Positions 18,489 to 46,434 of a stretch of DNA of 64,000 nucleotides are shown one piece after another (position 1 is the stretch's first letter; every line of letters begins with the position of its first letter). A program made the translations under genes and the position numbers. Under the pieces are notes generated by a model. The model was not told the DNA's origin, did no database searches, and saw only the letters and a program-made list of their open reading frames with translations. The stretch comes from a virus. Taxonomy: Duplodnaviria > Caudoviricetes. The stretch lies in IMG/VR virus record IMGVR_UViG_3300029305_002471, positions 7,669 to 71,668 of that record; one strand, given 5' to 3'.

Positions 18489-21400
18489 ATGGGTAATCAA
18501 TCAATTAGAGTAAATCTAATGTTTGACGCTAATGTTGCGGCAGCTAAAAATAATATCTAGCAATTGGCTACTTTATTACAATAGATTGCGACACCAAAAA
18601 CAGTTACAGTTAATGGTGGCGCTATTTAGTAGGCCGCATAGGCTGCGCAGACCCTGTAGATGCATCTGTAGAACGCAATGAATGTCAATACAGGAAAATT
18701 AGATTTAACTAAATTAAACTTTAGTTTGAAACAAGCTGGATTATCTCTTAATGATTTAAGTTCAAAACTTGTAGCTTCTGGTACTCAAGGATAGCAGGCT
18801 TTTACTAAGCTGGCCAATGCAATTGCATAGGCAGGTGTACCTGCTGCATAGCTAAATGCTACTATAGCACAGTTCTTAAAAACCATGGGTTCCGCTATGA
18901 TGTGGAGTGCAGCTTATGGCGCACTAGAAGGCGTTACTAGTACTATTAGAGAAGCCGTAGATTATGCCAAAGATTTAAATAAGGCTTTAAATGATATTGC
19001 TATTGTTTCAGATTTATCTGCTTCTTAGCTAGAAGATTTTGCTGTTAAAGCAGCAAAAGCTGCCAAGACTTTAAATACTACTACTACAGAGTATGCAAAA
19101 GCGGCTTTAATTTTCTATCAATAGGGTTTAAGCGGTAAAGAAGTAGAGGAGCGTGCAAATGTTGTTACTAAGTTAGCGCAAGTAACAGGAGAAAGTGCAC
19201 AGGAAGTTTCTGACCAGCTAACTGCAATTTGGAATAACTTTGATGATGGTTCCAAGAGTCTAGAATATTACGCAGATGCGTTGACTGCTCTAGGTGCAGC
19301 AACTGCGGCAAGTACCGATGAAATTACTTAGGGCTTAGAAAAGTTTGCCGCCGTTTCTGAAACCGTAGGTTTGTCCTATGAATATGCTACAGCCGCATTA
19401 GCAACTGTTGTAGATAAGACTCGTTAGAGTGCAGATATCGTAGGTACCGCATTTAAAACTTTATTTGCTCGTATTGGCGACTTGGAGCTAGGAGAGACGC
19501 TCGATGATGGTGTTACTCTTGGTAAGTATTCCGAAGCCCTTAACGCTGTTGGAGTTAATATTTTAACTCAAAGCGGAGAGTTAAAGGATATGGATAATAT
19601 CCTTGACGAACTCGGTAGTAAGTGGAATAATATTAGTAAAGCGCAGTAGACTGCATTGGCATAGACTGTTGCTGGTACTAGACAATATACGCAATTTATT
19701 GCCATTATGGATAACTACAAAGATTTTAAACTTAATGTAGATATTGCGTCTGGTGCAGAAGGAACACTTACCGAGCAGTGGGAGACTTGGGCGGATAGTT
19801 ATGAAGCAGCTGCCAAAAGAGTAGAACAAAGAAAAAATGAACTATATGAGGCCTTATTAGATGACGATTTTGTAATTGGTTTAACTGATACTTTTGCAGG
19901 ATTGATTGGCACTATCGGAGAAGCTGCTGATGCTATGGGTGGCCTTGGACCTATTATATTAACAATTATTGGATTATTTGCCAATAGACTAATTCCTGTA
20001 ATTTCTAATGCGGCTACTCATTTTGTATAGAATTGGCGAGTTATGAGCGGCGCTGCACAGCGGGAAAGCTTAGCTACTAAAGAATCGATTCGTCAGCTTT
20101 CTGAAGAAATGATTCAACAAAAAATTATTACTGGAGCTTAGGCTGAAGCTTTATAGTTAACAAATTAGTTATCTTTAGCAAAAGAAAAATTAGCTAAAAC
20201 TTCTCGCTATTTAACAGAGGCTCAGAAAGCTGAGTATGAATAGAAAATGAATTTATATGAAGCTGGTAATTTGGAATTATAGAAATCTATAGAACTAGCT
20301 GAATAGAAATAGAAAGAACTAATGGTAGCAAAAAAATCTTTTTCTGTTGTGAATAAGGATAGAATTAATAATGCCAATTAGAATAAAATAACAGAATTAA
20401 AAAAAGTTGTTGGAAATAAAGAAAATATTAAGGCTAGAAATGCGGAAATTCAAAGCATACAAAATAAAATTGATAAAGACCCTAATAATAATAAGGGCGG
20501 TCGATTAACCAAATATAACAATCGCTTAGCAGAATTAAAAAAAGAACAAGAGGCAGAAATTTAGCTATAGAGAATTAGAGCATCAACCAAAAAAGGAATA
20601 TCCGAACGTATTATAGGTACTTCTTAGTTAATTACTCCAGAGGCGGATGTAGAGGATAAATAGGCTGCTAATTATAGCGATAGATACTTAAATAATTTTT
20701 TACAACAAGATTTAGGAATGTCTGAACTCTCCGATGCTGCAGTTAGCTAGGGGTCCGTACAGGTAGACACAAGCATCGAAAATCTAGAAAAAGTTATTTA
20801 GAAAACCAAAGAAGTAAAAACCACGGGAGAAAATATTGATTAGTTTGTTATTGAGCTAGGAAACTCCTTAGAAAAAATAACTCCTGATAATGTAGACACC
20901 CTTAAGACGAGTTTTGAAAAGTTAGGACAAAATGCTGGATTAACTCAAGATGAAATAACAGAATTTAACACTTCTTTGGACAAATTGGCAAACGGCACAA
21001 AATTGCCAGAGGCCGATATGAATAAATTACACACTACTTTAAGGGGTATGCGTGATGGTGCTGAGCGCTCAGGGCTATAGCTAGAGGAATTGGCAGGGTA
21101 GATGGCAGAAACTTTTATACAAAGTGGTATAGGAGAAGAATAGTTATAGGACTTAATCAATAAAATGGATTTGACCGCGGAAGAGGCAGAATAGTTAAAA
21201 CAAAAAATAGCTGCCCTACAAAAACAATCAGAAGATTTAAATATTACCCCTAAAATGACCAAAGGATAGGCTTTTGGCTCTTTGATTGGTCAAGTGGGTC
21301 AACTTGCTGGAAGCATTTCTATGGTGGTAGGTGCTGTTTAGATGTTTAATACTGTTTTTGATGAAACTGCTGACCCAATGACTAGATTTACAACTGCTTT

Positions 21401-24400
21401 AAGTGCAATAGGTATGTTATTACCAGCTATAAACATGTTAATGAATGAAAATACTATAGCTACCACTAAAAACGCAGTTGCTAGTTTGTTTGGATTAGGA
21501 GTAATTGAAAAAGAAGGGAAAAAGACATACGCTTTAGCTACGGCCAAAGGGGTTGAAACTACCGCAACATTGTTATAGACACTCGCATAGACCGCCTTAA
21601 ATGGCTCAATAGGCGCCACTCTTGGCCTAATGTTAATTTTTATTAGTGTTATAGGTATACTTGTAGGAGTTGTATTATTCGCTATTGACGCCTATAAACG
21701 TTATAATGAATCTTTACGGGCAGAAGAAATTGCTTTGGAAAGCGCAACAGACGCCTTAAATAACTAGAAAGAGGCTGTTGAGAGTTTAACTTCTGCATAT
21801 GACGAATTAAAAGATTCAATGTCTGACCTTAATGAATAGCAAGCTGCAATAGATGCTATGATTGAGGGGACTCAAGAATGGGAAGAGGCCGTCGAAAAAG
21901 TTAATCTATAGATAATGGATTTAATGGCTCGTTATCCGCAATTAGCTGAAGGCAATTTTGTTATTACTGATTCTAATGGTAGGATGTCACTTACTAAAGA
22001 AGGCCAAGATGTTATTCTTTAGGCGGAATATAGAGAGCTACAACGTGCTTAGCGAATATAGATGCAAAGACAAATGTCTGTAAATACGGCTTAGCAAGCA
22101 ATGAATATCAAAACAGCAAATAAAAATATTGATGTTTTTGGAGATTCGGTTGATGGCAAGCGTTCGGCTGAGGCAAATGCAGAAAATGCAGATATTGAAG
22201 ACAATGTGCATGAATTAGCTGAAGCCCTTGCTAATAATGAAAATGCAGTAGTTGATGCAGAAGGAAAAGTGGATTCGTTTAGTGAGCGCGTTGAAGAGTT
22301 ACAAGATTTGTATAACAGCGGAAATTGGGATGAGTATAACACTGGTCTTGATAAATTGGTTGGTAAAAGTATATAGGCCAGAACCGCCGTAGAAGATTTA
22401 ATTGTTTCAAATAATAGATTAGAAAATGCCAACAAAAAATTAGAAGAAGCAATTTTAGGCAATGAATTTTCAGATAACGATATATACGCTTCTTCGAAAT
22501 GGAAGAGTATTATTAACACGATAGCTGCAGAAAACGATGCTAGTGAGATTTTACAGGAAGATATTGATAGGTTTATGGATAATGCTGATAGCACTGACAC
22601 AACAGCAGAGGAATAGTTAAAACAATATTTATCAGTTGTCTTTGGAGAGAATCTCGAGAATATATATAGAGATGGTAATACCATAGTTGGTCAAAATTAT
22701 CGTATTTCGAATTTTGGCGAAGAAACTATGACCATTGAAAAGCGAAGTGACGAAGGTTGGACAACATACGATGATAACGCCACTCGTGGTCAAATGGCAA
22801 GAGAATACGCGCAAGCTTTAGCCATATAGCGAACCGAAGAAAAACTAAAGGATTTTGTGGACGAGGCCGAAGCTATTGGCGAGCAACTTATTTCAGCAGG
22901 CTTTAAACAACGTAAAGATGAAGATTCTGAATCTTTCTATAATCGTTTAAATATTATTGGTCAAGATTTTTACAGTGGTAAAACAATAGACTTATCAGGG
23001 CTAACCCGAGAAGAAGTAAATTAGTTACAAGGAGACCAAAACACTGAATTAGGTAAAGCGATTGAAGAGGCTAAAGTTGGCTATGAGGCAGCTCGTGCGC
23101 AAGCAAATATTTTGGCCAATAGCAAATGGGTAAAAGAAAAAGAAGATAGAGAAGCTGAAGAATTATCTGGAATTTTAAAAACGGCCGGTATGGATAAGAA
23201 TGATTTTGACAATTACGTAAAATCATTTAAACAATATGGAGATGCGGCTGAAAGTATCGCTAAGAAGACCTTAAAAACAAGCAATGCGATAAACTCCTTA
23301 AACAAGATATTTGAAGATAATGAAGAAGCGCTTGCTCCTGCAAACGAGGGCACGGCCGCCTATGCAACAGCCATCGGAGATTTATAGGCCTCTTTAACTG
23401 AATGGCTTGGAGTAGATTTAGATTATGATTATATTACTCAAAATCTAGAAACAGTCAAAAACGCAGCGAATGGCAGTGAAGAAGCAATTAAAGAACTCCA
23501 AATTGCAGCAGCCAGAAAAATAGTTGTAGAAATGGATTTAACTGAAGAAAATGCTAATAAGTTAAATGATTTTATTACAACCATTGAAAATAATAATTCT
23601 ATTACAATTGGTGCCTCTATTGGAGCTGTTGATGATGCTGGATATATTGATAGTCTAAATGAAATGCTTAAAAATGGTGAGATTACAGCTGAAAAAGCGA
23701 CTGCACTATTAAATAGCATTGGCTATGACCCTGATATAGAATATGATACTGTTAAATAGTCAACAAAGTATGATTATATTGTAGATTTACCTGGAACGGA
23801 AGAGGACTACTCAGGCTCTTTTACAGTAACTAAAGATATGCAAGTACCAAAGATTAACGCGAAAGGTACAAAATATACTGGTAATAAAATTACTTAGACT
23901 CCTGCATCTGCAAAAACTTCTAAATCTTCAGGTTCTAGTAAAGAAAAGAAAAACGCTGCTGATGAATCTGAGCGCTATCATGAAATCGAAAAAGAGCTGG
24001 AACGTCTTCAAAGAGAATATGATGCAACCTCTAAGGCTAAAGACCGCGCATTCGGTCAAAAACATCTAGATTATCTAGAGCGCGAAATCGAACTGACCAA
24101 TGAACTTGCTGAAGCAACGCAACAAAAGCTATCTGAAGCCATGACCAACCTAGAGAAAGACCGTGCAGCTATGAACAAATACGGTATGTCTACCGACGAG
24201 TATGGTTAGATTACTAACTATGACGAAATGGTAGCTGCGCAAGTTGCGGCCTATAACAAGAATCCTGAAGGACAGGAAGAGGCTTATTCTCAATTCCAGA
24301 AAGAGCTGCAGCAGTATGAAGATACTCTAGCACTAGTTGCAGATTTGAAGCTGGATATTCAAGATTACGAATATTAGAAGATTGACTTAGAGCTATAGAA

Positions 24401-27059
24401 GATACAATACACTATTGACCTAGAAATTCGCTTAGCTGATAATGACTTAAAGCTAATTGAATATCAGTTAGAAAATCTTAGAGATACTGCGGCTGAAGTC
24501 GCAGAGAAGTTTGCGTTGATGGGTAAAACCATGGAGACAAATGAGCGCAAAGCTGCTGCGGCGCAACAGGGTATAGCCGATATATTAGGTCTTAGCCAAA
24601 TAGAACTGGATTAGCTGTTAACCGAAGGCGCTGACATTGCTCAAATGGTTAAGGATAAAAACTTAACTGAAGAACAAGTTTCTGCGCTAGAAGGATATGT
24701 TGACTAGCTCTATGATTCTGTGGATGCAATGAAGGCACAACGCGATATGATTTCTGATAATCTAGTCGCAGCTTTTGAGGATATGAACAAGGAAATGGAT
24801 GATTCTATCATAAAGCTTGACCATATGACCTCAATGATTGAATCTTTCCGCAATATTATCGACCTTACGGGCAAGGATGCGCTTGGCATTAGCGACGACC
24901 TCATGAAGAAAATGAACGAGTCAGCAAAAGCAATTGCAGATAATAACATCTAGATTGCGAAGGCACAGCTACAACAGAATCAAAGCGCACTAGAAGACTT
25001 ACAAGCACAAATGGACGCGGCTGAAGCAACCGGCGACAAAAAAGGTGTTGAGGAGTTAAAAGAAGCTTATGATGAGGTTCTCTCCACCGTACAGGATAAT
25101 TAGACTGCTCTTCTGGATGCAACAGCAGCTGGTTTAGAAGCAGCGACAAAGTTGTTCGAGCATGAAATGAATGGTATTCTAGAAACCTTTGAAAATGCAA
25201 TGTCTGGTATTTACGGTTCTTTCTCTGCTTTACAAGAGGCGTTTGACAGATAGACAGAGGTAAACGACAGGTTCTTAGATGACTATGCCAAGATTTATGA
25301 ACTATCTAAATTAAATCGCGACCTGACGAATTCTATTGATGACACAGATAGTATTCGCGGTAAGTAGATGCTACGTGATTTATAGGCTGAAATTAATGAG
25401 CTCCAATAGTCAGAAACTGAAATGACACAATATCAGGTAGATGAATTGCGTGCTCGTTATGAACTAAGAGTAGCAGAGATTGCTCTTGAAGAAGCCCAAA
25501 ACGCAAAGTCCTAGGTACGTATGCGCAGAGATGCGAATGGTAACTGGGGTTATGTATATACCGCCGATTAGGATGCGGTAAATAGCGCAGAATAGAATTA
25601 TGAAGATAAGTTATATGCTTATTAGAAGCTGCTTCAAGAGAATATTGACGAAATGCAAGCTCGCTTGGTAGCAATTCCTCAAGAGTATGCTGAAGCGGTC
25701 CGCGCAATTTACGAAGACCAGACCTTAAACGACGAAGAACGCAGACTCCGCATCCAAGAAACTTAGGACTATTACCAAGGCATGTACAGCCATGTGGTTG
25801 AGCAGTTGCGTACCATGACCGGCGATTCCAAGGTTCTGTATGAAGAAGACTGGACCAACTATTCTAAGACTACTGGATATAAAATCTCTAAAGACGCTGA
25901 ATGGGTTGATAGCTTCGGCGAAACTGTAGCGGCGCAAGTGTCCGGTCTGAATAGCTTAGATGTGGCACAGCAGACATTCCAAACCAACTCTTAGACCATG
26001 TTGAGCGGTTTACAAACAGCTTATGCGACTTACCGCACAAATGTTAATGAAACTCTTGAGCTTGCTCTTGGCGATGTTGAAAAGTTCTTTGGTGATAGTA
26101 CTACTGATGGTACTTTATCTTATTATCTTGATTAGATGAAGCTGAAGTCTGGTGAAGCGGCTACGAGTGCTAAAAGCATGGGAGAAACTAATGCTGAAGC
26201 CTTTAAAACTGCCGCCGAGGCAGCTGGCTCATGGTTAAGCACTTATTCTTCTAATATTGATAATTGGGTAAACAAGACTGGTGATATAGCCGGTGCTGTA
26301 AATGGAATAATCACTGCTTATAGTAATTTGGGGGTAGAATTGGATACGCTTTCTGGTAAATATAATAAGGTTATTTAGAAGGCTTAGGAGTATTAGGGTG
26401 TTGCTGGAAAGGGCGATACAGTAGTTAATTCTAATGGTACAACGTCTACTATACAGCATAAAGTATAGGCTTCTATTAATGCTTATCGAGCAGGAGAGAA
26501 TTCGAAAACTGACCGTAATGCTTATGCAATCACCTCGGCAGAAGTAACATCAAAAGGCTGGGTTAAAGCCTTTGATGAAACTGGAAAAGTTAAAGAACAC
26601 TATAGAGTATCCGCGATGCTTGTAGATGGAAAAAGTGAAATTTTATATCTTTCTGGGGACTAGTTAAAATCTTTATAGGCTTTGGGCTTATTGATTGATA
26701 AATATAATGTAACTGCTGCGTTTGACACAGGTGGCTATACAGGCTCCTGGGATGCTTCTGGACGACTTGCGATGCTACATCAGAAAGAATTAGTGCTTAA
26801 TGCTTCTGACACAGTAAATTTCTTAGCAGCAGTAGATATCCTACGTGATATTACTAAGATAATTGATTTACAAGCATTATCACAATCTAATATGATGAGC
26901 GCAATTACATCTGCGTCGATAGGCACAGCTGCGCAAGTTATTGAACAAGATGTTACAATACATGCGGAATTCCCGAACGCAACCAATAGGTCTGAAATCG
27001 AATAGGCTTTTGACTCATTGTTAAATCGCGCTTCACAATTTGCAAATCGCAAAAAATAA
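18489..27059 (+). CDS. Tail tape measure protein (~2856 aa, dozens of TAG=Q)
   Basis: All nine plus-strand fragments (19707 to 26682) share the frame of ATG 18489; TMP-like N-terminal region, hydrophobic segments, coiled coils, C-terminal FDTGGYTG..LAMLHQKELVL. Confidence 0.88.
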
Positions 27060-27068
27060 TGATATAAT

Positions 27069-27105
27069 AGTGATGTAGATAGGAAACTATCTACACCACT
27101 TTTTT
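27069..27105 (+). terminator. Intrinsic terminator after the tape measure
   Basis: AGTGATGTAGATAG-GAAA-CTATCTACACCACT-TTTTT. Confidence 0.8.
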
Positions 27106-27110
27106 GTATT

Positions 27111-27157
27111 TGGGCAAGTCTTGGCAATATGGACTTGAGAATTTTCATAATATATGA
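27111..27157 (+). promoter_or_regulatory. Tripartite motif, copy E (upstream of tail-tip genes)
   Basis: TGGGCAA-N8-AAT-N13-TTTTCA-TAATATA, immediately after a terminator. Confidence 0.65.
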
Positions 27158-27183
27158 ATAAGGAGAGAAAGGAGAGATACAAT

Positions 27184-36400: not shown

Positions 36401-37308
36401 GTTTTTATGGTAAAATTTTTCCTACGATTGAGAAATTTTTTAGATTTATTAAAATTACAAACCCAGGAGACACTGATTCTCAAGTGATTGATGCTACAGA
36501 CGCTAATGACACTTTTGAATTAATTGGTGAGAATGGAATTGAAATTAGTGCTAATAAAGAAACTAAATAGATTATAGTGAAGTCTACATTAGCTAATATG
36601 TTATTATCTAACGCAGAACTAGTATATAAAGATAATAACCAAAACGAAGGGACTTTTCTTAAATTAACATTTCACACTGTGGATAGCGGCAATGAAGAAA
36701 TAGTTTATATAGACGTTAAAGAATTAAATGAGTTCGTAGATATTCAAGGGGATAATAATATTAACATTAACATTGATGAATAGAATATTTTACAAGTAAC
36801 ATTGACAAAAGAGCCAATTACAACTAAAGAATTATGTTTATAGTCAACTCAGAATGACGAAGTAATTTCTTTAACTCCAACACATATAGGCTCTAATTTC
36901 GGAGCAATTTATTTTAATGACCCCCTTTTCGGTGGAGGAGTGGTACTTTAGAATATTGCTCCCGCCCAAAGCTCTATGGATGCTGTTAATAAAGAACAAT
37001 TAGAAAAAGAAATTAATAATTATAATCCCTATTTTGCAGTCGAATATAGTGATGACCAAGAGGCTAGTAAAAATAGCTCTGAGATTTTAGATGCTTTTTT
37101 AGACAGGCATTAGATACCATACTATTATGAAGCTGATGAATATTATTCCTTTAGTGGTGTTTCTCTAGTAGAAGACGAGTTATGTGCTCATTTTATATTA
37201 ATCCACTATAATTTTGCTATAGACACTTCACAAATTGTTATCAAAACAATAGATAGTATAGGCACATGCTATACTAATACCATAGTATTAGGAGGGCAAG
37301 AAAGTTAA
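36397..37308 (+). CDS. Putative tail fibre/receptor-binding-like protein (303 aa)
   Basis: In frame with the 36577 fragment; last gene before the holin; beta-rich. Confidence 0.45.
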
Positions 37309-37697
37309 TGGATTGGATGAAATTATTATATGATGTATTGAATTGTTGTATTATTCCTTTTCTTGGCATAGCAACTGTTTATTTAATCAAATGGTTATCG
37401 GCCAAAGAAAAAGAAACTCTTGATAAAATTGATAATGCAACAGCTGAAAAGTATGTTTCAATGTTATTTGACACTATTCGTGATTGCGTAAGTGCTACAA
37501 CTCAAACATACGTTGAGAAACTTAAAAAAGATAATGCCTTTACCGCTGAAGCTCAAAAGATTGCTTTTTAGCAGACTTTTGATGCCGTTATGGCGGTGCT
37601 AACAGATGACGCCAAAGAATATTTAACAACAATATATGGTGACTTAACCACTGTTATTACTGCAAAGATTGAAGCAGAAGTAAAAGCGTAGAAATAA
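37308..37697 (+). CDS. Holin (LL-H-like, single N-terminal TM; 129 aa, two TAG)
   Basis: TM CIIPFLGIATVYLIKWL; ..CVSATTQTYVEKLKK..F motif; ends tail operon before a terminator. Confidence 0.65.
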
Positions 37698-37738
37698 AAA
37701 AACCCCTAGTAGATTTTATCTACTAGGGGTTTTTTTTT
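37698..37738. terminator. Bidirectional intrinsic terminator
   Basis: AAAAAACCCCTAGTAGA-TTTTA-TCTACTAGGGGTTTTTTT. Confidence 0.85.
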
Positions 37739-37796
37739 GCCATTTTTTCTGGAAAATAGTTTAAGCAAAAAAGTCCAAAAAAAAATTCCAAAATTT

Positions 37797-37845
37797 TTGG
37801 CAAATTGGGAAAATCGTATTGCCGCAATTTTTAAGAAAGTATGAA
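37797..37845 (+). promoter_or_regulatory. Tripartite motif, copy F (upstream of the six-gene cassette)
   Basis: TTGGCAA-N8-AAT-N13-TTTTTA-AGAAAGTA. Confidence 0.5.
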
Positions 37846-37888
37846 GGGGATAAGACATAAAAAAATACTTTCCGGAGGTAAACAAAAA

Positions 37889-38320
37889 ATGTATAATAAC
37901 AATCAAACTCAAACACAACAACAACCCGTTTATATGCCACAGCAATATCAGATGAATCGGCCAATTTATCAGACTTTGATGTAGCAATCTTATACGGGAA
38001 TCAAAGGCCGTCCTGTCGCGTCTATAGAAGAAGCACGCGCCAGTATCATCGACTTTGACGGTTCTATCTTTTATTTCCCCGATTTGGCAAATAAAAGAAT
38101 TTACACAAAACAAATTAATATGGATGGTACAGCGATTTTAAATATGTATGAGCTAAAAGAAATTCCAATAGAGACACCGAGTGCTGGCGCGCAATATGTC
38201 ACTAGAGAAGAATTTGAGGCCGCTATTTAGGCGCTGCGTCAATCCAGTACCCCGGCACCGATTCCGCAGACTGTCCCTGCTGAACCAACCACTAAGCCGG
38301 GGGTAGCGCTAAACTTTTAA
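37889..38320 (+). CDS. Cassette gene 1: Q/Y/P-rich low-complexity N-terminus plus small beta domain (143 aa); missed by the ORF track
   Basis: GGAGGT RBS; MYNNNQTQTQQQPVYMPQQYQ...IKGRPVASIEEARAS...FYFPDLANKRIYTKQINMDG; two TAG. Confidence 0.75.
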
Positions 38321-38333
38321 GGAGGAAATAAAA

Positions 38334-38588
38334 ATGAGTATGAATGTCAATCCAATGCTTTTGGTCCAAGCTATAAAAGAAGGACAAAACCCTCAACAGT
38401 TAATGTTGAATATTCTAGAAAATAATATGTCTGGAACCCCTTTGGGTGATAATTTAATCGAATTGGCAAAAAATGGAAGAAGTGCCGATATCGAAACTAT
38501 CGTTCGTAATATTTCAAAACAAAGAGGTATAGATTTTGACAAAGAATTTCCCCACTTTGTTTAGATGCTAGGCCTCGATAAAAAATAA
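38334..38588 (+). CDS. Cassette gene 2: small helical NPQ-motif protein (84 aa)
   Basis: AGGAGG RBS; extends through TAG 38562 to TAA. Confidence 0.75.
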
Positions 38589-38605
38589 TTTTTGGAGGTA
38601 TATTT

Positions 38606-39466
38606 ATGTTTAATAGTAATTCTTGTAATTACAGCCTATCTGATATTGCCGCAGTAACTGGTCGCAATAATGGCGATGGCATGTTTGGTGGCGACAACGG
38701 CTGGTGGATTATTCTACTATTCCTATTCGCTCTTGGTGGATGGGGCAATGGCGGCTATGGCTTTGGTGGCCAGGGTGGCGCCCGTGGTCAAAGCGAAATC
38801 TCTTATAGCTTTGACATGAATGGCTTAGAAAACGGCGTTCGTGGAATCCAGTAGGGTCTATGTGACGGTTTCTATGCAATGAATACTGGTATGTTAGGCG
38901 GATTTAACGACGTTCAAAGCACTCTTTGCTAGGGCTTTGCCGGCGTAAATAACGCTATTACTACTACCGGTTATGGCATTTTAGATGCTATTCACGCAGA
39001 TACTATTGCTAATATGCAGAATACTACTGCTATTAATGCTGGTATCACTGGTTTAGGTACTCAGCTAGCTGCTTGCTGCTGCGACCTACGTAGCGACTTA
39101 GCTAAGGGCTTCTGTGATATTGGATACAATATGGCTACTCAAGCTAACGCCACTCAGCGCGCTATTGCCGATAGTACTCGTGATATTATCGATAGCAACA
39201 ATGCTGGTGTACGTTCTATCTTAGACTTCTTAACACAAGACAAGATTGCTACCTTAACTGCTGAAAATCAATCTTTGAAATTCGCAGCTTCTCAGGCTAG
39301 CTAGAATGCATTCATTACTGCAAATCAGGAAGCTCAAACCGCTGAGCTAATTCGTAGACTAGGTCGTGATTGCCCAATCCCAGCCTATGTCGTGCCCAAT
39401 CCAAACTGCTGCTACAACTATGCTCAGCCTGTGAGCTATAGTAATTGCGGTGGCTGTGGTTGCTAA
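38606..39466 (+). CDS. Cassette gene 3: Gly-rich TM segment, long heptad coiled coil, Cys-rich tail (286 aa)
   Basis: Fragments 38606 and 39014 in frame; WWIILLFLFALGGWG TM; ACCCD; ends CCYNYAQPVSYSNCGGCGC. Confidence 0.8.
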
Positions 39467-39482
39467 TAAGGAGGCAAGCTAA

Positions 39483-39902
39483 ATGGAAATTATTGCTAAT
39501 GAACTACAGACTGTTTTAGAGAATCAGAACGTCCAGTTCACCGATACTGTTGTTCCAGGAAAAGCTTGCACCATGCACAGAACCGGCTCTGGCTTGGTGA
39601 GTCTGAAAGGACTCACCAATCAGTGCCGCGCCCGTTTTAAGGTGTCTTTTGGTGCTAATATAGCCCTTCCTGCTACTGGAACTGTAGATGCTATTTCTTT
39701 GGCTATTGCCATCGACGGCGAACCAATAGCTTCTACAACTATGATAGTTACTCCTGCAGCTGTTGAAGATTTTTTCAATGTTTTTGGAGCTATCTATTTA
39801 GATATTCCTCGCGGTTGCTGCTCACAAATTAGTGTCCGTAATACAAGCACTCAAGCAATTGATGTTCAAAATGCAAACTTAATTATTGAAAGAGTAGCAT
39901 AA
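39483..39902 (+). CDS. Cassette gene 4: all-beta sandwich protein, BclA-CTD/C1q-like by pattern (139 aa)
   Basis: Intact ORF, alternating hydrophobic beta strands, GCC motif; fold call is inference. Confidence 0.7.
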   Translation: MEIIANELQTVLENQNVQFTDTVVPGKACTMHRTGSGLVSLKGLTNQCRARFKVSFGANIALPATGTVDAISLAIAIDGEPIASTTMIVTPAAVEDFFNVFGAIYLDIPRGCCSQISVRNTSTQAIDVQNANLIIERVA

Positions 39903-39918
39903 TAAGGAGGTTAAAGGT

Positions 39919-40623
39919 ATGGAACAATTAAAATCTATGAAAGAAATGTTGGTTGGATGCGTTCAGGGCCAATTAACTCATTTAGATACAGTTGATGCCA
40001 AAGAGCTTGGCGAGGCTGTTGATATGATTAAAGACCTTAGTGAAGCTATTTACTATTGTACTATTACTGAAGCAATGGAAAAGAAAGACAAAGAACCTCA
40101 GCCAATGTATTATCCAGTTATGTATTATACTGAAAAAGAGGGAAATACTGATGGTCGTGATATGGGACGTAGAGGATATCAAGACTACGGTATGCGTTAT
40201 CATGGTGGTATGATGCCTTATGTGTATTATCCAGAAGACGAATACTATCGTGATATGGATAAAATGAAAGGACGCATGTATTATAATGGCAACGGAAACA
40301 GTGGTGGCAACTCCTCCTCTGGTAACAACGGCTCTTCTAGTGGATATTCTTCTGGTAACTCTGGAACTAGAGGATATTCTGAGCACCAGATGCAGTTAGG
40401 CGAAATGATGCGTGACCAGCGTGAAGGTCGAAGCGGTCAAAGTAGAAAAATGTATATGGAATCTAAAGAGATGCATAAAGACAAAGCTTCTTAGTTATAG
40501 GAGCTGGAAAAATATGCTCAAGAGCTAACTAGCGATATGGTTGAAATGATTAAGGATGCCTCACCCGAAGAGAAACAGTTCCTAAGTAATCGTATTGCTG
40601 CTTTAGCCACCAAAATAAAATGA
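39919..40623 (+). CDS. Cassette gene 5: helical ends flanking a Y/M/R/G/S/N low-complexity core (234 aa)
   Basis: Extends through two TAGs to TGA 40623; GNGNSGGNSSSGNNGSSSGYSSGNSG. Confidence 0.75.
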
Positions 40624-40946
40624 TAAATATAAATGGTGAATGGTGGAGAGTACTGCTAGTATCTCCCAATCATCCTCAGCTTATGCGCGGCGACGGTTCT
40701 TATACCATAGGAGCTTGTGACGATATTGTAAAAACTATATACATCTGCGAAGATATAAATCCAAAATTAATGAAAAAAGTTTTATGCCATGAGTTAACCC
40801 ACGCGGCTATGTTTAGTTATAATATCGAAATGAATTTAGCACAAGAAGAATTATTTGCTGATTTAGTAGCTACTTATGGTTAGGAAATAGTTTGTAAAAC
40901 AAATCTCTTTTTCAAAAGATTAAAAGAAAATAGGGAGACCCAATAA
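40620..40946 (+). CDS. Cassette gene 6: HEXXH zinc metallopeptidase (108 aa)
   Basis: VLCHELTHA plus downstream EE (QEELFAD); ATGA coupling. Confidence 0.7.
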
Positions 40947-40967
40947 GGGTCTCCCTTTATTTTTTTT
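40932..40967. terminator. Terminator at the convergence of the plus and minus arms
   Basis: AGGGAGACCC-AATAA-GGGTCTCCCT followed by a T-rich tract. Confidence 0.8.
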
Positions 40968-41500: not shown

Positions 41501-41977
41501 TTAGAAGGCGGATTTTGTTGAATTTATATAATGCGTTCCTATACAGATTGCGTCACTCTGGTCTTGCGAAACTTTAAGTCCATAAAACTCTGTAATAAAG
41601 TTCTATGCATTGCGCTTTTGTGTAGCACGGTCGCGCCCTTTGATTCCAAGGGTGGACTTCCAGGTTTGCGAATGAACTAATTCGTGTGGAATATTATATT
41701 CGCGCGCAAGTTCCTCAAGAACGCCGAGCACCTCAGCTAAAGCCTTATAGGTAGTTACATTATTTGTTTGCCCTTGAAGCTAAATGTCTTCAAGTAAAAT
41801 TTTAGTTATATTATACTCTTCAATTAAAGAAATTACTTTGTTGCGAATTTTAACTAAACGCAATGAGAAGTCAGAATCGTCATAGGTAAAAGTACCGCTA
41901 GCTATTAATCTTCCCTCTTGGAATACAGCATATCCACTGGTTCTAGAGGCCTAATCTAAAGCTAAAATATTAGTCAT
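41501..41977 (-). CDS. ruvC: RuvC-like Holliday junction resolvase (158 aa); missed by the ORF track
   Basis: ILALDQASRTSGYAVF (Q=TAG), LLEDIQ, SDAICIG acidic triad. Confidence 0.8.
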
Positions 41978-41981
41978 TATT

Positions 41982-42635
41982 TTATTTCTTTGGTGTCCCT
42001 ACTATAAAGGCTCTGCGCCCGGGATTGCAGGCCATTACGCATTCTTCGCCTTTATTAATCTCAATTGTCGTAGAGCCAAATCCGCCAGTGCGTTCACCTT
42101 CTGCGGCATCATCATCAACTGTATAATACTTATGAAAAACTCCTTGACCAATAGTATCGCCTTTATGAAGTACAATATCAAAAGGAGATAGGTTAATTAT
42201 CTGAAAGAAGATATGGCCCTCATTGTCTGGATTATTATAGTAATCTGCATCAATTATACCCACTCCATTGGCTAGAATTAACCAGTGCTTAAGTGGACAG
42301 GAGCTGCGAACAGATAATTCTAGATACATGTCTTCTGGCATTTCGCATTTAATTCCAGTGGGAACGAGAGTAGGTTTACAATAGCTCTATTTTGTAATTG
42401 CGGCAACTTCACTTAAACTCTTATATTCGTGGGAAGTGAGTGTAAGTAAGCTGCTACTATAATTCTATTCATTTTCACTTTCATCCTATTGTTTTAATAC
42501 CCTCATAAGATTAAAATAGCTAGGAATTACAATATCTTCCGCTACTTGAAAATCATAGCCTGCGCTTGCCCTGGTCTTCCGTTTGGGAAGATTCAAGCCC
42601 GCATCTGTATATTTTGAAACAATTTCAAATTTCAT
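41982..42635 (-). CDS. dut: Trimeric dUTPase with an internal insertion (217 aa)
   Basis: ASAGYDF, LVPTGIK, VRSS, GIIDADY, IGQGVF, RTGGFGST motifs. Confidence 0.9.
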
Positions 42636-42638
42636 GAA

Positions 42639-42854
42639 TTAATCCCAAAAACCAGCGTATTCTTTAACGACCTTAACCACATAAGCCTGGTCAACAACTT
42701 CGCCTTTTAATTTCTTTTCTTTAAGAGTATAAGAGTAAGATTTGAGAACATATCCATTCTCGACTGCATCGGCCTTTAATTCTTCGTTAAAAGCGCGAAC
42801 CTCTTCTGCGGTATCTACGCGGTACACTTCCGCAATTTGATTTATATATTTCAT
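42639..42854 (-). CDS. Hypothetical protein (71 aa)
   Basis: Intact ORF in a tightly packed operon. Confidence 0.7.
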   Translation of the reverse strand: MKYINQIAEVYRVDTAEEVRAFNEELKADAVENGYVLKSYSYTLKEKKLKGEVVDQAYVVKVVKEYAGFWD

Positions 42855-42855
42855 T

Positions 42856-43116
42856 TTAAATTACCTCTACATTAATATTATTATTTCCATAATTTAAAGC
42901 ATAAGCAGTTTTGATTTCTTCTGCCCAAGCGTTGGTATAAACATTTTGTCCATGCAGTTTAATTTGAGTTGCGTTAAATTCTCCTGCTAGAGCGCAAACT
43001 GCTGGTATGACATCTTCAATATCCACTTTGCGAGTATGAATCTCTTTACCATCCTCAATAACATAAATCATTTGGTCACAGGAGAATAATTGAATATTAC
43101 ATAGAATTATCCGCAT
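42856..43116 (-). CDS. Hypothetical protein (86 aa)
   Basis: Intact ORF in a tightly packed operon. Confidence 0.65.
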   Translation of the reverse strand: MRIILCNIQLFSCDQMIYVIEDGKEIHTRKVDIEDVIPAVCALAGEFNATQIKLHGQNVYTNAWAEEIKTAYALNYGNNNINVEVI

Positions 43117-43622
43117 ACAATTACCCCGCTATCATAAGGGAAGAAATACATTACATATGTTTCTTCTTGATTAGTAACCCAAATTTCAATGGCTCTATTA
43201 TCTTCTGTTGGGTCAATAGCTTTAATGCTTCCAATATCATTAGCACACTCAATAACAAGGTCATCAATAAGTTCATCGGCTAACTTTACATCAATAGCAA
43301 AAAGAGTATAGTAATTAATATCGCGACAAAGTAACATATAAAACTGATTATGTTCTTCGTCTACAAAATCTCTAATTAACTTTTTCTTTTCATTAATAGT
43401 ATCATTATCCATAATTTGTAATTGACCAATAATTTGCTTATTTATATCATATGCGCTCATTGTAATTCCGCTATCAAACTGGAAAAGCTTCCACCCTTCT
43501 ATGGGGTCCCAGCGATAGACCTTACCATCTTGTTCGCAAGAAACAATTTGGCCAGCGTAAGGTTCAAGTACATCATTTAAAGTTTCTACACTTTCAATCA
43601 TAAGGATTTTCTCCTTTCTCAT
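43107..43622 (-). CDS. Hypothetical protein (171 aa)
   Basis: Intact ORF downstream of a sigma-A promoter. Confidence 0.7.
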   Translation of the reverse strand: MRKEKILMIESVETLNDVLEPYAGQIVSCEQDGKVYRWDPIEGWKLFQFDSGITMSAYDINKQIIGQLQIMDNDTINEKKKLIRDFVDEEHNQFYMLLCRDINYYTLFAIDVKLADELIDDLVIECANDIGSIKAIDPTEDNRAIEIWVTNQEETYVMYFFPYDSGVIVCG

Positions 43623-43633
43623 TTTTTTTCTTT

Positions 43634-43662
43634 ATTATATCAAAAAATTTTTACTTTTTCAA
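43634..43662 (-). promoter_or_regulatory. Sigma-A promoter
   Basis: TTGAAA-17-TATAAT. Confidence 0.7.
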
Positions 43663-44127
43663 CTCAATAATTCTCTAATTTGAGCTACCTCTCATTGGCA
43701 GCGTAATATCTCTTAAAGATTCAATATAAGGACCATCTATTAAAACATCGGTCATAGAAAGAATTTTTTCAATATGAGGAGTTTGAAATTTTAGTAAATT
43801 CTCATATAAAAATCCTGTCCAAATATAAACCTTTACATCTGGTAATTTTTCTTTTACCTAGGAAATTACAAGAAGTGTTAAGAATTCGTTTTCTTCACAA
43901 AGTGGTTCGCCACCTAGGATGCATAAATTGCGTTTAATTCCGTTTGCAGTAAGTGCGGTAATTATTTCATTTAAGACCTAGGGGGTAAATTCTTTACCCC
44001 CATCAAATTCCCAGGTTTCCGGATTCTAGCAACCGGGGCATCTGTGCGGGCAGCCTTGCGTGTAAAATGAAACGGAAACGCCAGGCGCTGCCGAAAAATC
44101 ATTCTTGTCTAACCCGGCGTATCTCAT
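43651..44127 (-). CDS. nrdG: Anaerobic RNR activase NrdG (158 aa); missed by the ORF track
   Basis: GCPHRCPGCQNPETW (CxxxCxxC), LGGEP, IDGPY, RGSSNQRII with Q=TAG. Confidence 0.92.
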
Positions 44128-46370
44128 CCGTGTTTCACCCGATCTTCAACCTCGGCTTGTTTACCCGCATTAAACGCGCTCTTGTAATCGCCAGATAGAT
44201 AACCAGTTACGCGACGCAAATGTGTGACGTGATGACCACCGCATTCTAGACAGATATCATTCATCTCATCCGCGTAGCCGCAATCTTGGCACTCGTCTAC
44301 TGGAACATTTATCGCGAAGTATGGAATGTCGTGGTCCATAGCATAGTTTACTATTGTTTCAAGAGCTGATAAATTATTTTTAATTCCGCTTTCCAATTCA
44401 ACATAAGTAATACATCCAGCAGTAGAATACCCAGTTAACTGACTTTCAATATCAATTTTTTCAAAGGGGGACATTTTTTTCCATACTGGTACATGCATTG
44501 AATTAGTAAAGTAATCTCTATCAGAGATATTTTTAACAATACCATATTTTTCTTTAAATTTCTTCATAGCCGTATGACACAGTCCTTCGGCTGGAGTATA
44601 ATAAACAGCAAAGTTTAAATGCTCTTGCTCTTTAAACTCTTTACAGCGTTTACTAAATAGGCCTTCGATGCGTTTTGCCAATTCCATTCCCTTAGGCTCT
44701 GTATGGTCACATCCTACAAGAATCTGTAAAGTCTCAGCTAAACCAATTTGACCAATAGCCAAAGTAAAATGTTTCATAACAGATTCAATGGTTTTTCCAT
44801 CAAAGCCAATGCCTAAATTATTTTCGTACATAAATTTGGCGGCAGAGGGGTCTTGAGAACAAATCCAATGATAACGCTCTAATAGGATGTCGCGCGCGTC
44901 ATGGATAGCAGCGTCTAAGGCCTTCATAAACTCTTCAATAATGTCTTCATCTGCTACAGATTGGCGGGAATATACTTGCATAGCCAATGTCGGCATAATA
45001 ATAGTGACTGGGCAACAATTACCTCTACCATCTTTAGTCTATGGATTAACACCGGGGTCTGCATTAATATCTGTTAGATTAACCGTGCGGCAACCCATAC
45101 TAGATAGATAAGTTGCTGGGTCATTGGGGTCATAACCGGCGTTATTAGACCAGTCGCAGTTTAAGTAGTTAGGATACAAGCGCTGTGAAGTGGAGCGCAA
45201 AGCTAACTGATATAAATCGTAGTTAGGGTCTCCTGGCTAACGATTTACGCCTTTCATAAGTTGAAAAATACCACAAGGGAATATTGAGGTCTTATGAAAT
45301 TTACCTAAGCCTTCAATAGAAACTTCTAATAAGGCTTTAGTAATCATACGACCTTCTGGTAATGTGCAAGTGCCATAGTTTAAAGAAGTAAATGGCAGTT
45401 GGCCGCCCGACCGCGACTAGAGTGTATTGAGGTTGTGATAGGCGCCCTCAACGGCCTAATGAATCTCACGCTCTGTCATATCCATGGCATATTTATAAGC
45501 TTCATCAGAACAACCGAATCTGTCTCTACTAATATCAAAATCTGTGTTCCAATTTACGTTCTCGAAATTTATTAACTCTCCTTTGGCGTTAATCGGTTTA
45601 GCTTCTATTTTATCAATATATTTACAAGCATCTTTCATGTGTTTCCAAAAACTTTTTCTTACATAAGGAACCATGGTCCAGTCAATATGCCCTGCGCTAA
45701 TGCCGCCAAATTGGCATAGACTTTGTAATTGGAATATAACTGCCATTAGCTAAAAAGCAGTATTAACCGATCCTGCGGGACGGACATCGGTTTGACGCAC
45801 TCTAAAGCCGTTCGCCAGCAACGCGTCCAGAGGTGCCGTTAAACAGTTGTGGTCGCCCACACTATAATGATCTAAATCGTGCGTGTAAATCTCATTGTTC
45901 TCATGGCGCATACGAGCAAGGTCGCTCATTTGATATGAAAGAGCATGCTCTTTCGTCATTACACTAGAAGCGGTGCCAATGCGTCCAGAGAAAGAATTTT
46001 CATCCATATTAGCATTAGAATTTTCTACTCCAATACCAGCAAGTTTGTCTGTAATGGCTTCAAAGAAGGTGTCTTTAGCTTCACGAGCTACTTCTTTCTT
46101 GTAGCGATAGCGAATATAGGCGCGAGCCACATCTTTCCGCTCAGATGCCATTAACAATTGTTCAACACCATTTTGAATATCTTCAACATTCAAAATTTGT
46201 TTCGCTACTTTCATAGCTATTGCGTGTTCACGCAACATTTCTGCAATTTCTTCTGCAGTTTCATCTTCATATAATTCACCATCAACTTCGATGAATGCTT
46301 TGTTGATAGCATCGATAATTTTTTGTTTATCAAAAGGAACTTGTGTTCCATCACGTTTTATAACATACAT
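44124..46370 (-). CDS. nrdD: Class III anaerobic ribonucleotide reductase NrdD with N-terminal ATP cone (748 aa)
   Basis: MYVIKRDG ATP cone; NLNTLQSRSGGQ; MGCRT; TPAEGL; Zn ribbon; C-terminal RRVTGY glycyl-radical motif. Confidence 0.95.
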
Positions 46371-46384
46371 AATTTTTACCTCCA

Positions 46385-46434
46385 ATACCATATATAGTGT
46401 GGGAAAAAGTATGTGCCCACACTATATATGGGTT
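46385..46434. promoter_or_regulatory. Two NrdR-box-like sites forming a 16-bp inverted repeat upstream of nrdD
   Basis: ATACCATATATAGTGT (46385-46400) and ACACTATATATGGGTT (46419-46434) match acaCwAtATaTwGtgt. Confidence 0.7.

What the first reader, a model, noticed from the sequence alone, without database searches (positions are those of the whole stretch)
37889..40946. Self-contained six-gene late cassette of unknown function: candidate undescribed self-assembling system
Seen: the unit is bounded by terminators (37698, 40932), opened by motif copy F, tightly coupled, and sits between two holin-like genes. Its products are (1) a Q/Y/P low-complexity protein, (2) an NPQ helical protein, (3) a Gly-rich TM plus long coiled coil with ACCCD and a CCxxxxxxxxxxxCGGCGC tail, (4) an all-beta C1q/BclA-like sandwich, (5) a protein with a Y/G/S/N low-complexity core and (6) an HEXXH metallopeptidase. 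Inference: a membrane-anchored fibre, a trimeric-type head, Cys cross-linking, condensate-like scaffolds and a maturation protease suggest an assembled structure. Candidates are a spore-coat/exosporium-like armour, a virion coat, or a cell-surface appendage built during late infection of a spore-forming host. I recall similar gene sets in gut phages as unannotated hypotheticals but cannot verify this here.
Basis: partly seen in the sequence, partly recalled or inferred. Interest (0 to 1): 0.85.

Follow-up and report, generated by a model that had tools for sequence, protein, structure and literature searches.

The report
Gut-phage rod-and-knob accessory cassette
Six tightly packed late genes of a stop-codon-recoded gut phage form a real, widely shared but dispensable cassette that encodes a long cysteine-studded helical rod, a small knob folded like Bacillus spore-surface proteins, low-complexity helpers and a tiny zinc peptidase; its job is unknown and it is not tied to spores.

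Summary
Read with TAG=Gln, window 37889-40946 carries six coupled genes between two strong terminators, just after a holin gene. g3 is predicted to have a short Trp/Gly-flanked hydrophobic segment and one about 27-nm helix with 3.65-residue periodicity, an invariant CCC and a Pro/Cys tail. g4 is a stand-alone TNF/C1q jelly roll closest to BclA, F-BclA and ExsF/BxpB (Z 16-18). g1 and g5 carry low-complexity stretches. g6 is a minimal HExxH protein.

All six genes are syntenic in 60-197 kb relatives. g1, g3 and g4 recur, with positional analogues of g2 and g5, in 25-50 kb temperate Bacillota phages. The rod alone recurs in Bacteroides and crAss-like phages and in viruses assigned to methanogens.

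Three independent clean deletions in near-identical relatives, and about 20 relatives without the cassette, indicate that it is accessory.

No link to sporulation was found.

My best reading, at low confidence, is a late-made assembly anchored at the cytoplasmic membrane that acts at egress. A virion-borne accessory fibre is the main rival.

No paper describing the cassette was found. This scan has already met the same cassette on other DNA.

The parts
37308..37697 (+). Holin gene directly upstream (context, not part of the cassette)
   Evidence: phrog_13712 'holin', E 6e-28. It is syntenic with the cassette in most large relatives.
37702..37738 (+). Intrinsic terminator closing the holin transcription unit; upstream boundary
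   Evidence: RNA fold -27.2 kcal/mol, z -6.8, 0 of 200 shuffles as stable, followed by a T run.
37796..37846 (+). Promoter-like motif (TTGGCAAA ... AATTTTTA ... TATGAAGGGG) ahead of g1
   Evidence: Conserved upstream of g1 in relatives L003, L005, L006 and L013. A second similar copy lies at about 27110-27160 ahead of the 1200-aa late gene. Function is inferred.
37889..38320 (+). g1: Q/Y-rich N-terminus, a small conserved domain and a C-terminal helix (143 aa, 2 TAG)
   Evidence: Translation; 11 Q and 5 Y in the first 35 residues. Weak phrog_21718 match. Homologous to the Q/Y/P-rich gene (c15) of small temperate phages: hhalign probability 97%, E 1e-10.
38334..38588 (+). g2: small NPQQ-containing protein, probably helical (84 aa, 1 TAG)
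   Evidence: Translation. No Pfam, PHROG or NCBIfam family. Syntenic in 43 of 80 g4-anchored loci. The M/Q/F-rich gene at the same position in small phages shows no significant homology.
38606..39466 (+). g3: rod protein with an acidic N-tail, a short W/G-flanked hydrophobic segment, a helix of about 183 residues with invariant CCC, and a Pro/Cys tail ending CGGCGC (286 aa, 3 TAG)
   Evidence: phrog_16490, E 2.5e-59. AF2 predicts helix 71-253, pLDDT above 90 at 180-250. Hydrophobic period 3.65 residues, 0 of 1000 shuffles as strong. The family has 3715 clusters at 50% identity. Conserved motifs.
39483..39902 (+). g4: stand-alone TNF/C1q/BclA-type jelly-roll 'knob' with invariant CC (139 aa, no TAG)
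   Evidence: phrog_20016, E 7e-56. AF2 pLDDT 92.3, pTM 0.84. VIA-align Z 17.6 to F-BclA CTD, 16.2-16.4 to BclA CTD, 15.9 to BxpB, 15.8 to ExsF. No longer fused forms found.
39919..40623 (+). g5: probably helical ends around a G/Y/M/S/N/R-rich low-complexity core (234 aa, 2 TAG)
   Evidence: Translation; composition. The conserved N- and C-terminal blocks and variable core are seen in 14 relatives. No family in any library.
40620..40946 (+). g6: minimal HExxH zincin-like protein (108 aa, 1 TAG), overlapping g5 by ATGA
   Evidence: HExxH in 16 of 16 relatives. phrog_1233, E 3.7e-12. Pfam DUF2268, M78 and SprT-like all fall below their curated cut-offs. Retained in all three natural deletions of g1-g5.
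40932..40956 (.). Bidirectional intrinsic terminator; downstream boundary, shared with the convergent - strand arm
   Evidence: Stem of 10 pairs (7 G-C) with T runs on both strands. It lies inside the 3' end of g6.

Best explanation
This is an accessory, late-expressed 'rod-and-knob' cassette.

Shown or predicted here:
- g3 is predicted to be a helical rod of about 27 nm with hendecad-type (3.65-residue) hydrophobic periodicity.
- The rod carries an invariant CCC and, in bacterial-phage versions, a conserved PxPAY...NP plus Cys-rich tail.
- A short Trp/Gly-flanked hydrophobic segment lies behind an always-acidic N-tail.
- g4 is a BclA/ExsF-type TNF-like jelly roll that follows g3 in every Bacillota-phage locus where it could be tested.
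- g1 and g5 carry low-complexity stretches; g2 is a small N/Q/M-containing protein.
- g6 is a minimal HExxH protein.
- The unit has its own promoter-like motif and terminators.
- It can be deleted in nature.

Inferred:
- The rod oligomerises, and its hydrophobic segment sits in the cytoplasmic membrane of the infected cell.
- The Cys clusters staple chains or bind metal.
- g4 trimers dock on the rod.
- g1, g2 and g5 help assembly.
- A cassette peptidase matures one component, possibly by removing the acidic N-tail of g3.

The rod family occurs in viruses of monoderm, diderm and (as assigned in the records) archaeal gut hosts. It usually lies at the end of the late genes, beside lysis or tail-fibre genes. 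I therefore think the assembly acts at the cytoplasmic membrane at the end of the cycle, in timing or shaping egress or in marking or shielding the lysing cell and its debris. I do not think it acts in spores or as a core virion part.
For: - Gene structure and coupling.
- Boundaries.
- Rod.
- N-tail: net charge -1 to -4 in 85 of 85 sequences, with almost no K/R.
- Knob fold.
- g3 lies immediately upstream of g4 in 79 of 80 g4-anchored viral loci; the one exception has no upstream sequence.
- All six genes are syntenic in about 41-47 of those loci.
- g1 is homologous in small temperate phages. There the cassette lies between a holin or CHAP endolysin plus a small HTH gene and the integrase.
- Rod homologues with the same motifs occur in Bacteroides phage C3_41T2LP, crAss-like cr125_1 (beside holin and a LysB-like gene), C. 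perfringens phage XP41-N3 and virus vir335.
- Dispensability: three independent clean deletions and about 20 cassette-less relatives.
- A holin lies directly upstream here.
- No partner protein shows a signal-peptide or lipobox start.
- HExxH peptidases occur in both the Bacillota and Bacteroides versions. A protein with invariant C, H and D occupies the cassette in small phages.
Against: - Nothing shows membrane insertion. The hydrophobic core is short (13-17 residues in most of the 85 sequences) and the C-side flank carries no positive charge, so topology is unresolved.
- No evidence of a g3-g4 contact: no fused forms and no multimer model could be run.
- The g3 tail is conserved in Bacteroides phages that lack any detectable g4, so the tail's partner may not be g4.
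- In many Bacteroides-phage loci, and in vir335, the cassette adjoins a tail-protein gene, in the Bacteroides loci together with a reverse-transcriptase gene. That fits a virion role as well.
- g6 is spared by all three deletions and is separated from g5 in a Lachnospira prophage, so it may not belong functionally.
- The deletion variants are metagenome assemblies whose viability is assumed.
Confidence: 0.35

Rival explanations
1. Virion-borne accessory fibre or decoration. The g3 rod is fixed to the capsid or tail and g4 forms its distal or anchoring trimer. The hydrophobic Gly-rich segment is buried until it meets a membrane. The whole structure is dispensable, like T4 fibritin, Hoc or lambda side tail fibres.
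For: - The cassette lies at the end of the late, structural arm, after tail-type genes.
- In many Bacteroides-phage loci, and in vir335, it adjoins a phrog_5302 tail-protein gene.
- TNF/C1q-like domains occur in solved phage fibre tips (cyanophage A-1(L), A4; Z 12.7-13.1).
- Dispensability fits accessory fibres.
- Depositors annotated homologues as 'viral fiber' or 'spike'.
Against: - The same rod is carried by crAss-like phages, a Butyrivibrio phage described as siphovirus-like and viruses assigned to archaea. Their different virions would need different attachment sites.
- In small temperate phages the cassette sits after the lysis genes, next to the integrase, with its own HTH gene. In C3_41T2LP and XP41-N3 it sits among recombination or early genes.
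- g4 is 51-94% identical across very different phages. This is unlike what I know of receptor-binding tips, which are usually highly variable.
- No virion proteome is available.
Confidence: 0.27
2. Superinfection exclusion or another conflict system. A membrane-anchored rod and its partners block entry of competing phages or counter a host defence.
For: - The cassette has an accessory, moron-like position at the late/early junction with its own promoter, terminators and sometimes its own regulator.
- It has a candidate membrane anchor.
- It is dispensable.
Against: - No match to any PADLOC defence model.
- Here five of the six genes need TAG read-through. The first-stage notes on this genome take that to mean late expression, which is poor timing for exclusion in a lytic cycle.
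- The cassette is also carried by crAss-like phages.
- Six to seven genes with low-complexity proteins is unlike the exclusion proteins I know of, which are single genes.
Confidence: 0.1
3. Membrane-fusion or spanin-like egress device. g3 works like an i-spanin or a class I fusion protein. A protease frees a Gly-rich fusion-peptide-like N-terminus, and a long helical bundle drives membrane remodelling at lysis or entry.
For: - The architecture is a Gly-rich hydrophobic segment followed by a very long helix.
- The only PDB profile matches are sub-threshold hits to the HA2 fusion peptide plus helix (E 0.05-0.3).
- The cassette lies next to a holin and a LysB-like gene in crAss-like cr125_1.
- A peptidase recurs in the cassette.
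Against: - The HA2 matches are not significant.
- There is no C-terminal anchor or second heptad region, and no lipoprotein partner.
- The cassette is present in phages of monoderm hosts, which need no spanin, and it is dispensable.
Confidence: 0.08
4. Spore-coat or exosporium-like armour built in, or on the spores of, a spore-forming host.
For: - g4's closest folds are BclA, F-BclA and ExsF/BxpB of the Bacillus exosporium.
- The Cys- and Tyr-rich composition recalls coat proteins.
Against: - The cassette is carried by a phage isolated on Butyrivibrio fibrisolvens and by a prophage in Lachnospira intestinalis.
- The rod is present in Bacteroides phages and in viruses assigned to archaea.
- There is no collagen stalk, no Pfam BclA_C match and no sporulation gene nearby.
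Confidence: 0.02

Closest known systems
BclA / F-BclA C-terminal domain and ExsFA/BxpB (Bacillus cereus-group exosporium nap and F-type endospore appendage; PDB 1wck, 9h38, 8d02, 7r1m, 9h3d)
   Same: g4 has the same TNF/C1q-type jelly roll: Z 15.0-17.6, rmsd 1.8-2.3 A over 119-129 of 139 residues. Like ExsF/BxpB it is a small stand-alone protein encoded beside a fibre gene with a Pro-rich terminal peptide.
   Different: - Sequence identity is only 11-18% and there is no Pfam match.
- The stalk partner is alpha-helical, not collagen.
- The hosts are not the B. cereus group and include hosts not known to sporulate.
- Whether g4 binds the g3 tail is untested.
TNF/C1q-superfamily ligands of animals (EDA-A1, C1q-like, adiponectin)
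   Same: Overall logic of an N-terminal hydrophobic anchor or Cys-containing region, an elongated stalk and a trimeric jelly-roll head. EDA-A1 gives Z 15.3. From general knowledge, Cys clusters that staple chains are typical of such fibres.
   Different: Here stalk and head are separate polypeptides. The stalk is a hendecad-type helix. The proteins are viral and prokaryote-associated. Topology and oligomer state are unknown.
Bacteroides and crAss-like phage cassette around the g3 homologue (deposited as 'spike protein/glycoprotein' or 'outer capsid protein/viral fiber')
   Same: The rod has the same architecture and motifs: Gly/Trp hydrophobic segment, CCCD, SASQQAQTA, PxPAY..NP and terminal GCGC. 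It also forms a compact cassette of 5-7 genes that ends in an HExxH protein, conserved in 77-82 of 84 loci.
   Different: The partners (c1, c2, DUF7841, a small acidic protein) show no profile similarity to g1, g4 or g5. No separate g1 or g2 is present. The deposited names appear to be predicted, not tested.
Spanins (lambda Rz/Rz1)
   Same: An N-terminal anchor plus a long helical region with functionally important Cys, encoded beside a holin. A Pro-rich element is also involved.
   Different: There is no lipoprotein partner. The cassette is present in phages of monoderm hosts, is dispensable, and has six genes rather than two.
Dispensable virion appendages (T4 fibritin and Hoc, lambda side tail fibres)
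   Same: Accessory, late, encoded at the end of the structural genes, and readily lost.
   Different: Those have no hydrophobic membrane-type segment, no Cys clusters and no accompanying low-complexity proteins or peptidase. Virion association of g3 and g4 is untested.

Membership tests
BclA_C / ExsF-BxpB exosporium proteins | TNF/C1q-like jelly-roll fold | tested here: met
   AF2 pLDDT 92.3. Z 17.6 to F-BclA, 16.2-16.4 to BclA, 15.9 to BxpB, 15.8 to ExsF. Foldseek E 3e-7 to 2e-5.
BclA_C / ExsF-BxpB exosporium proteins | Sequence membership (a Pfam family match such as BclA_C) | tested here: not met
   No Pfam family for g4 even at E up to 1. Identity to the solved structures is 11-18%.
BclA_C / ExsF-BxpB exosporium proteins | Collagen-like GXX stalk fused to the head (BclA type) | tested here: not met
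   g4 is 139 aa with no stalk. No longer fused relatives were found, which is weak evidence. The neighbouring g3 is alpha-helical.
BclA_C / ExsF-BxpB exosporium proteins | Sporulating host and exosporium context | tested here: not met
   Carriers include a Butyrivibrio fibrisolvens phage and a Lachnospira intestinalis contig. The rod also occurs in Bacteroides phages and viruses assigned to archaea. No sporulation genes nearby.
BclA_C / ExsF-BxpB exosporium proteins | Trimer that binds a Pro-rich terminal peptide of the fibre | not testable with these tools
   No multimer prediction is available. It needs AF-multimer of three g4 chains plus g3 residues about 250-286, or a pull-down.
Spanins (Rz/Rz1 type) | Partner outer-membrane lipoprotein with a lipobox | tested here: not met
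   None of g1, g2, g4, g5 or g6 starts with a signal peptide or lipobox.
Spanins (Rz/Rz1 type) | Required for lysis of diderm hosts | tested here: not met
   The cassette is present in phages of monoderm hosts and is deleted in natural variants.
Class I viral fusion proteins (HA2-like) | Sequence or profile similarity to a solved fusion subunit | tested here: inconclusive
   A profile of 85 g3 sequences matches HA2 residues 5-86 only at E 0.05-0.3.
Class I viral fusion proteins (HA2-like) | C-terminal transmembrane anchor and second helical region | tested here: not met
   g3 ends in a disordered Pro/Cys tail, and its only hydrophobic segment is N-proximal.
Holins | Match to a holin family | tested here: not met
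   g3 matches only phrog_16490 (unknown function). The true holin is the upstream gene, phrog_13712.
Zincin metallopeptidases (g6) | HExxH motif plus a family match above the curated cut-off | tested here: inconclusive
   HExxH is present in 16 of 16 relatives. The best Pfam hit, DUF2268, scores 21.8 bits against a cut-off of 23.6; M78 and SprT-like score lower. phrog_1233 (unknown function) matches at E 3.7e-12.
Known anti-phage defence systems (PADLOC) | Match to any defence-system model | tested here: not met
   No hit for g1-g6 at E up to 0.01.

The most novel reading that the evidence does not exclude
The cassette builds a previously unknown, protease-primed, cysteine-stapled structure that adapts gut viruses to their habitat rather than to a particular host envelope. 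It could be a membrane-active spike. It could also be a cross-linkable armour or aggregation matrix for released particles or debris. The universal rod (g3) would be the working part, with partner sets swapped between host phyla. That would explain why the same rod is kept by phages of Bacillota and Bacteroidota and by viruses assigned to methanogenic archaea.
Probability: 0.12. Interest if true: 0.9.

Novelty: categorically new. Interest (0 to 1): 0.66.

Why it matters
The rod family has more than 3,700 clusters at 50% identity. Neither has an informative name, a Pfam family or a paper that I could find.

The cassette is therefore one of the larger unexplained gene sets of gut and rumen viruses. 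It crosses host phyla and possibly domains, yet individual phages can lose it. That pattern points to a conditional fitness function in the gut that current phage biology has no category for.

Three cultured carriers make it directly testable: Butyrivibrio phage Ceridwen, Clostridium phage XP41-N3 and Bacteroides phage C3_41T2LP. The natural deletion variants give ready-made comparators.

Tried and rejected
- **Family searches.** Pfam, PHROGs, NCBIfam and PADLOC searches of all six proteins gave only unknown-function PHROGs for g3, g4 and g6 and sub-threshold peptidase hits for g6.
- **PDB profile searches.** g1 and g5 gave nothing useful. g3 gave only sub-threshold HA2 and generic coiled-coil hits. 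The small-phage Cys-His-Asp candidate gave nothing.
- **g5 and g2 versus small-phage analogues.** g5 against the small-phage R/G/Y/S-rich protein and g2 against the M/Q/F-rich protein are not significant by profile comparison. They are positional and compositional analogues only.
- **Bacteroides-cassette partners.** c1-c5 and the small acidic proteins show no similarity to g1, g4 or g5. g6 against the Bacteroides HExxH protein is only borderline, E 0.008 and probability 5%.
- **g2 as a fused N-tail of the Bacteroides rod.** I tested whether the N-tail of the Bacteroides-type rod is a fused g2. It is not supported.
- **Fused g4 forms.** None were found.
- **Literature.** Searches for BclA or C1q in gut phages, for the PHROG and DUF numbers and for the Ceridwen paper found no description of the cassette and no virion proteome.
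- **Suppressor tRNA.** None was found in the window or in the whole 71.7-kb contig.
I could not reconstruct it. Only two clear copies of a shared motif were found.
- **Host assignment from MAG bins.** I rejected this because many of the carrying contigs are 140-176 kb and look like whole phage genomes placed in bins.


Full report
**What is in the window**

- Under the standard bacterial code the region is a run of short broken frames.
- Every break is TAG and every gene ends in TAA or TGA. The whole + strand arm of the window, 1302-40946, behaves the same way, including a 2856-codon frame with 80 TAGs.
- Read with TAG=Gln, positions 37889-40946 give six genes.
- The Gln assignment does not rest on the open frames alone. 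The three TAGs in g3 fall on columns where homologues from other contigs mostly or always have Q, one of them invariant.
- The genes are 13-17 nt apart, each behind a GGAGG-type site, and g5 and g6 overlap as ATGA.
- Upstream lies a holin gene (phrog_13712, E 6e-28), closed by a strong terminator.
- Downstream, a bidirectional terminator sits inside the end of g6 and also faces the convergent replication arm. That arm carries a RuvC-like gene, dUTPase and an anaerobic ribonucleotide reductase activase.
- The second 'holin-like' neighbour is not supported as a holin.
- A promoter-like motif upstream of g1 is conserved in relatives and has a second copy at about 27110.

**The proteins**

- **g4.**
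  - It folds with high confidence (pLDDT 92) into a TNF/C1q jelly roll.
  - Its best matches are F-BclA, BclA, BxpB and ExsF of the Bacillus exosporium. Animal TNF and C1q proteins and some phage fibre tips follow.
  - It is stand-alone, and no longer fused relatives were found.
  - It has an invariant CC pair.
- **g3.**
  - *N-tail.* It is about 30 residues long and acidic, net -1 to -4 in all 85 sequences examined.
  - *Hydrophobic core.* The core is 13-17 residues in most sequences and is flanked by Trp and Gly-rich stretches.
  - *Helix.* A single predicted helix spans residues 71-253, about 27 nm. Its hydrophobic periodicity is 3.65 residues rather than 3.5, which suggests a hendecad-type straight bundle.
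  - *Cys motif and tail.* CCC is invariant. The tail carries PxPAY...NP and ends in CGC-type clusters.
- **g1.** It has a Q/Y-rich start, a conserved small domain and a C-terminal helix.
- **g5.** Conserved, probably helical ends surround a G/Y/M/S/N/R-rich core of variable length.
- **g2.** It is a small NPQQ-containing protein.
- **g6.** It is a 108-residue HExxH protein whose Pfam peptidase hits stay below the curated cut-offs.

**Distribution**

The g3 family has 3,715 clusters at 50% identity. Neither has an informative name or a Pfam family.
- In 80 viral contigs fetched through g4, g3 lies immediately upstream wherever sequence exists. About 41-47 contigs, of 60-148 kb, carry all six genes in the same order beside the same holin.
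- The rest are 25-50 kb temperate phages. Their cassette order is:
  - a protein with invariant Cys, His and Asp
  - a Q/Y/P-rich g1 homologue (hhalign 97%, E 1e-10)
  - an M/Q/F-rich small protein
  - g3 and g4
  - an R/G/Y/S-rich protein
  - a further small protein
- In those phages the cassette is placed after a holin or CHAP endolysin and a small HTH gene, and before the integrase.
- Cultured carriers are Butyrivibrio phage Ceridwen and Clostridium perfringens phage XP41-N3.
- In genome collections g4 is found in gut and rumen Lachnospiraceae, Oscillospiraceae, Acutalibacteraceae and others. These include a Lachnospira intestinalis isolate contig with g1-g6 and a complete Lachnospiraceae chromosome.
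- Many MAG hits are 140-176 kb contigs that look like whole phage genomes placed in bins, so I do not use them for host calls.

**The rod is the universal part**

- Homologues with the same architecture and motifs occur in Bacteroides uniformis phage C3_41T2LP and in many crAss-like phages. Depositors named them 'viral fiber' or 'spike glycoprotein'.
- Homologues also occur, with two CCC motifs but without the Pro/Cys tail, in viruses whose records give Methanomassiliicoccales as host.
- In Bacteroides-type loci the rod heads its own conserved cassette, present in 77-82 of 84 loci: c1, c2, a small acidic protein, DUF7841 and an HExxH protein.
- Those partners show no profile similarity to g1, g4 or g5.
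- So the partner set changes with host phylum while the rod persists. A peptidase recurs in non-orthologous forms.

**Dispensability**

Anchoring on the dUTPase of the replication arm recovered 80 relatives.

| Relative | Compared with | Flank identity | Genes lost |
|---|---|---|---|
| L101 | L100 | about 96% | 2.6 kb: g1-g4 and part of g5 |
| L117 | L100 | about 97% | g2-g5 and part of g1 |
| L087 | L089 | 70-80% | g1-g5 |

- In all three cases the junctions are clean, there are no Ns, and g6 is kept.
- About 20 more distant relatives have the holin gene next to the RuvC-like gene with no cassette at all.
- If these assemblies are viable phages, the cassette is accessory. It is therefore neither a core virion part nor a core lysis part.
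- g6 may be spared because the shared bidirectional terminator lies within it. This is inference.

**Reading**

Its spore-related candidates are not.
- What the assembly does remains unknown.
- I favour action at the cytoplasmic membrane late in infection, for four reasons:
  - The hydrophobic segment is the one feature shared across hosts with very different envelopes.
  - None of the partners has an export signal.
  - The cassette sits beside lysis genes in several unrelated backbones.
  - Five of the six genes here need TAG read-through.
- The main rival is a virion-borne accessory fibre. It is favoured by the position after tail genes and by tail-protein neighbours in some Bacteroides phages and in vir335.
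- The acidic N-tail and the neutral C-side flank give no clear topology.
- The conserved tail in phages without g4 argues that g4 may not be the tail's partner.
- The resemblance of g3 to class I fusion subunits is architectural only.

**Novelty and earlier notes**

- I found no paper describing the cassette or any of its families.
- This scan has noted and followed up the same cassette on other genomes. Those notes reached similar conclusions.
- I re-tested the main ones here: the fold, the g3-g4 pairing, spread across phyla, loss in nature, the cassette's own regulator and the lack of a spore link.
- I add several points:
  - the hendecad periodicity
  - the charge analysis of the N-tail
  - the three mapped deletions that spare g6
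  - the g1 homology in small phages
  - the lack of homology among the other partners
  - the absence of fused g4 forms

Noticed in passing
window 1302-40946 (+), e.g. 18489-27059: The whole late arm uses in-frame TAG. The 2856-codon frame has 80 TAGs, while several - strand replication genes have few or none. No tRNA gene was found in the window or in the whole 71,668-base contig, and the contig has no terminal repeat. The suppressor tRNA is therefore presumably encoded on a missing part of the genome.
   Followed up: partly
window 27097-27160: A second copy of the promoter-like motif seen upstream of g1 (TTGGCAA ... AATTTTCA ... TATGAA) lies just ahead of the 1200-aa late gene at 27154.
   Followed up: partly
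window 41501-46391 (-): The convergent arm starts with a RuvC-like resolvase, a dUTPase and an anaerobic ribonucleotide reductase activase (phrog_626, E 7e-44), next to a 755-aa gene that I did not test. This points to an anaerobic host.
   Followed up: partly
L085:5550-5927 (Clostridium phage XP41-N3): In this phage the gene after the rod is a 125-aa protein with a Cys-rich N-terminus (CNRRCNCCNRR). It has no Pfam match and did not cluster with g4 homologues in my BLASTP clustering. It may be an alternative partner of the rod.
   Followed up: no
L037:750-1472 (-); L083:3832-4452; L009 and L043 gaps; L272:3599-4962: Genes that look like homing endonucleases, or unexplained inserts of 1.1-1.9 kb, sit inside or at the edge of the cassette in several relatives. 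One lies between g2 and g3 in L037. One is annotated I-HmuI-like before the rod in C3_41T2LP. Others lie between g3 and g4 in Lachnospiraceae prophages. The cassette seems to be a frequent landing site.
   Followed up: no
L246, L249, L252, L262, L281, L304 and others (genome contigs): Contigs of 140-176 kb carrying the cassette are binned in MAGs labelled Methanobrevibacter, Mollicutes, Bacilli and others. Shorter cassette-bearing contigs are binned as Akkermansia, Prevotella and Alloprevotella. The sizes of the large contigs match those of the large phage relatives, so they are probably mis-binned phage genomes.
   Followed up: no
L188-L229 type loci, e.g. L198:1201-2487 and L195:75-788: In one large group of Bacteroides-phage loci the rod cassette lies just downstream of a reverse transcriptase (phrog_1423, E 2e-77) and a tail protein (phrog_5302). 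This looks like a diversity-generating retroelement next to the cassette.
   Followed up: no
L122-L125, L129, L130: A sub-lineage of the large phages has g1, g2 and a divergent g3 (27-35% identity) but no tblastn-detectable g4, g5 or g6, and its holin gene is inverted. It may be a third cassette variant.
   Followed up: no
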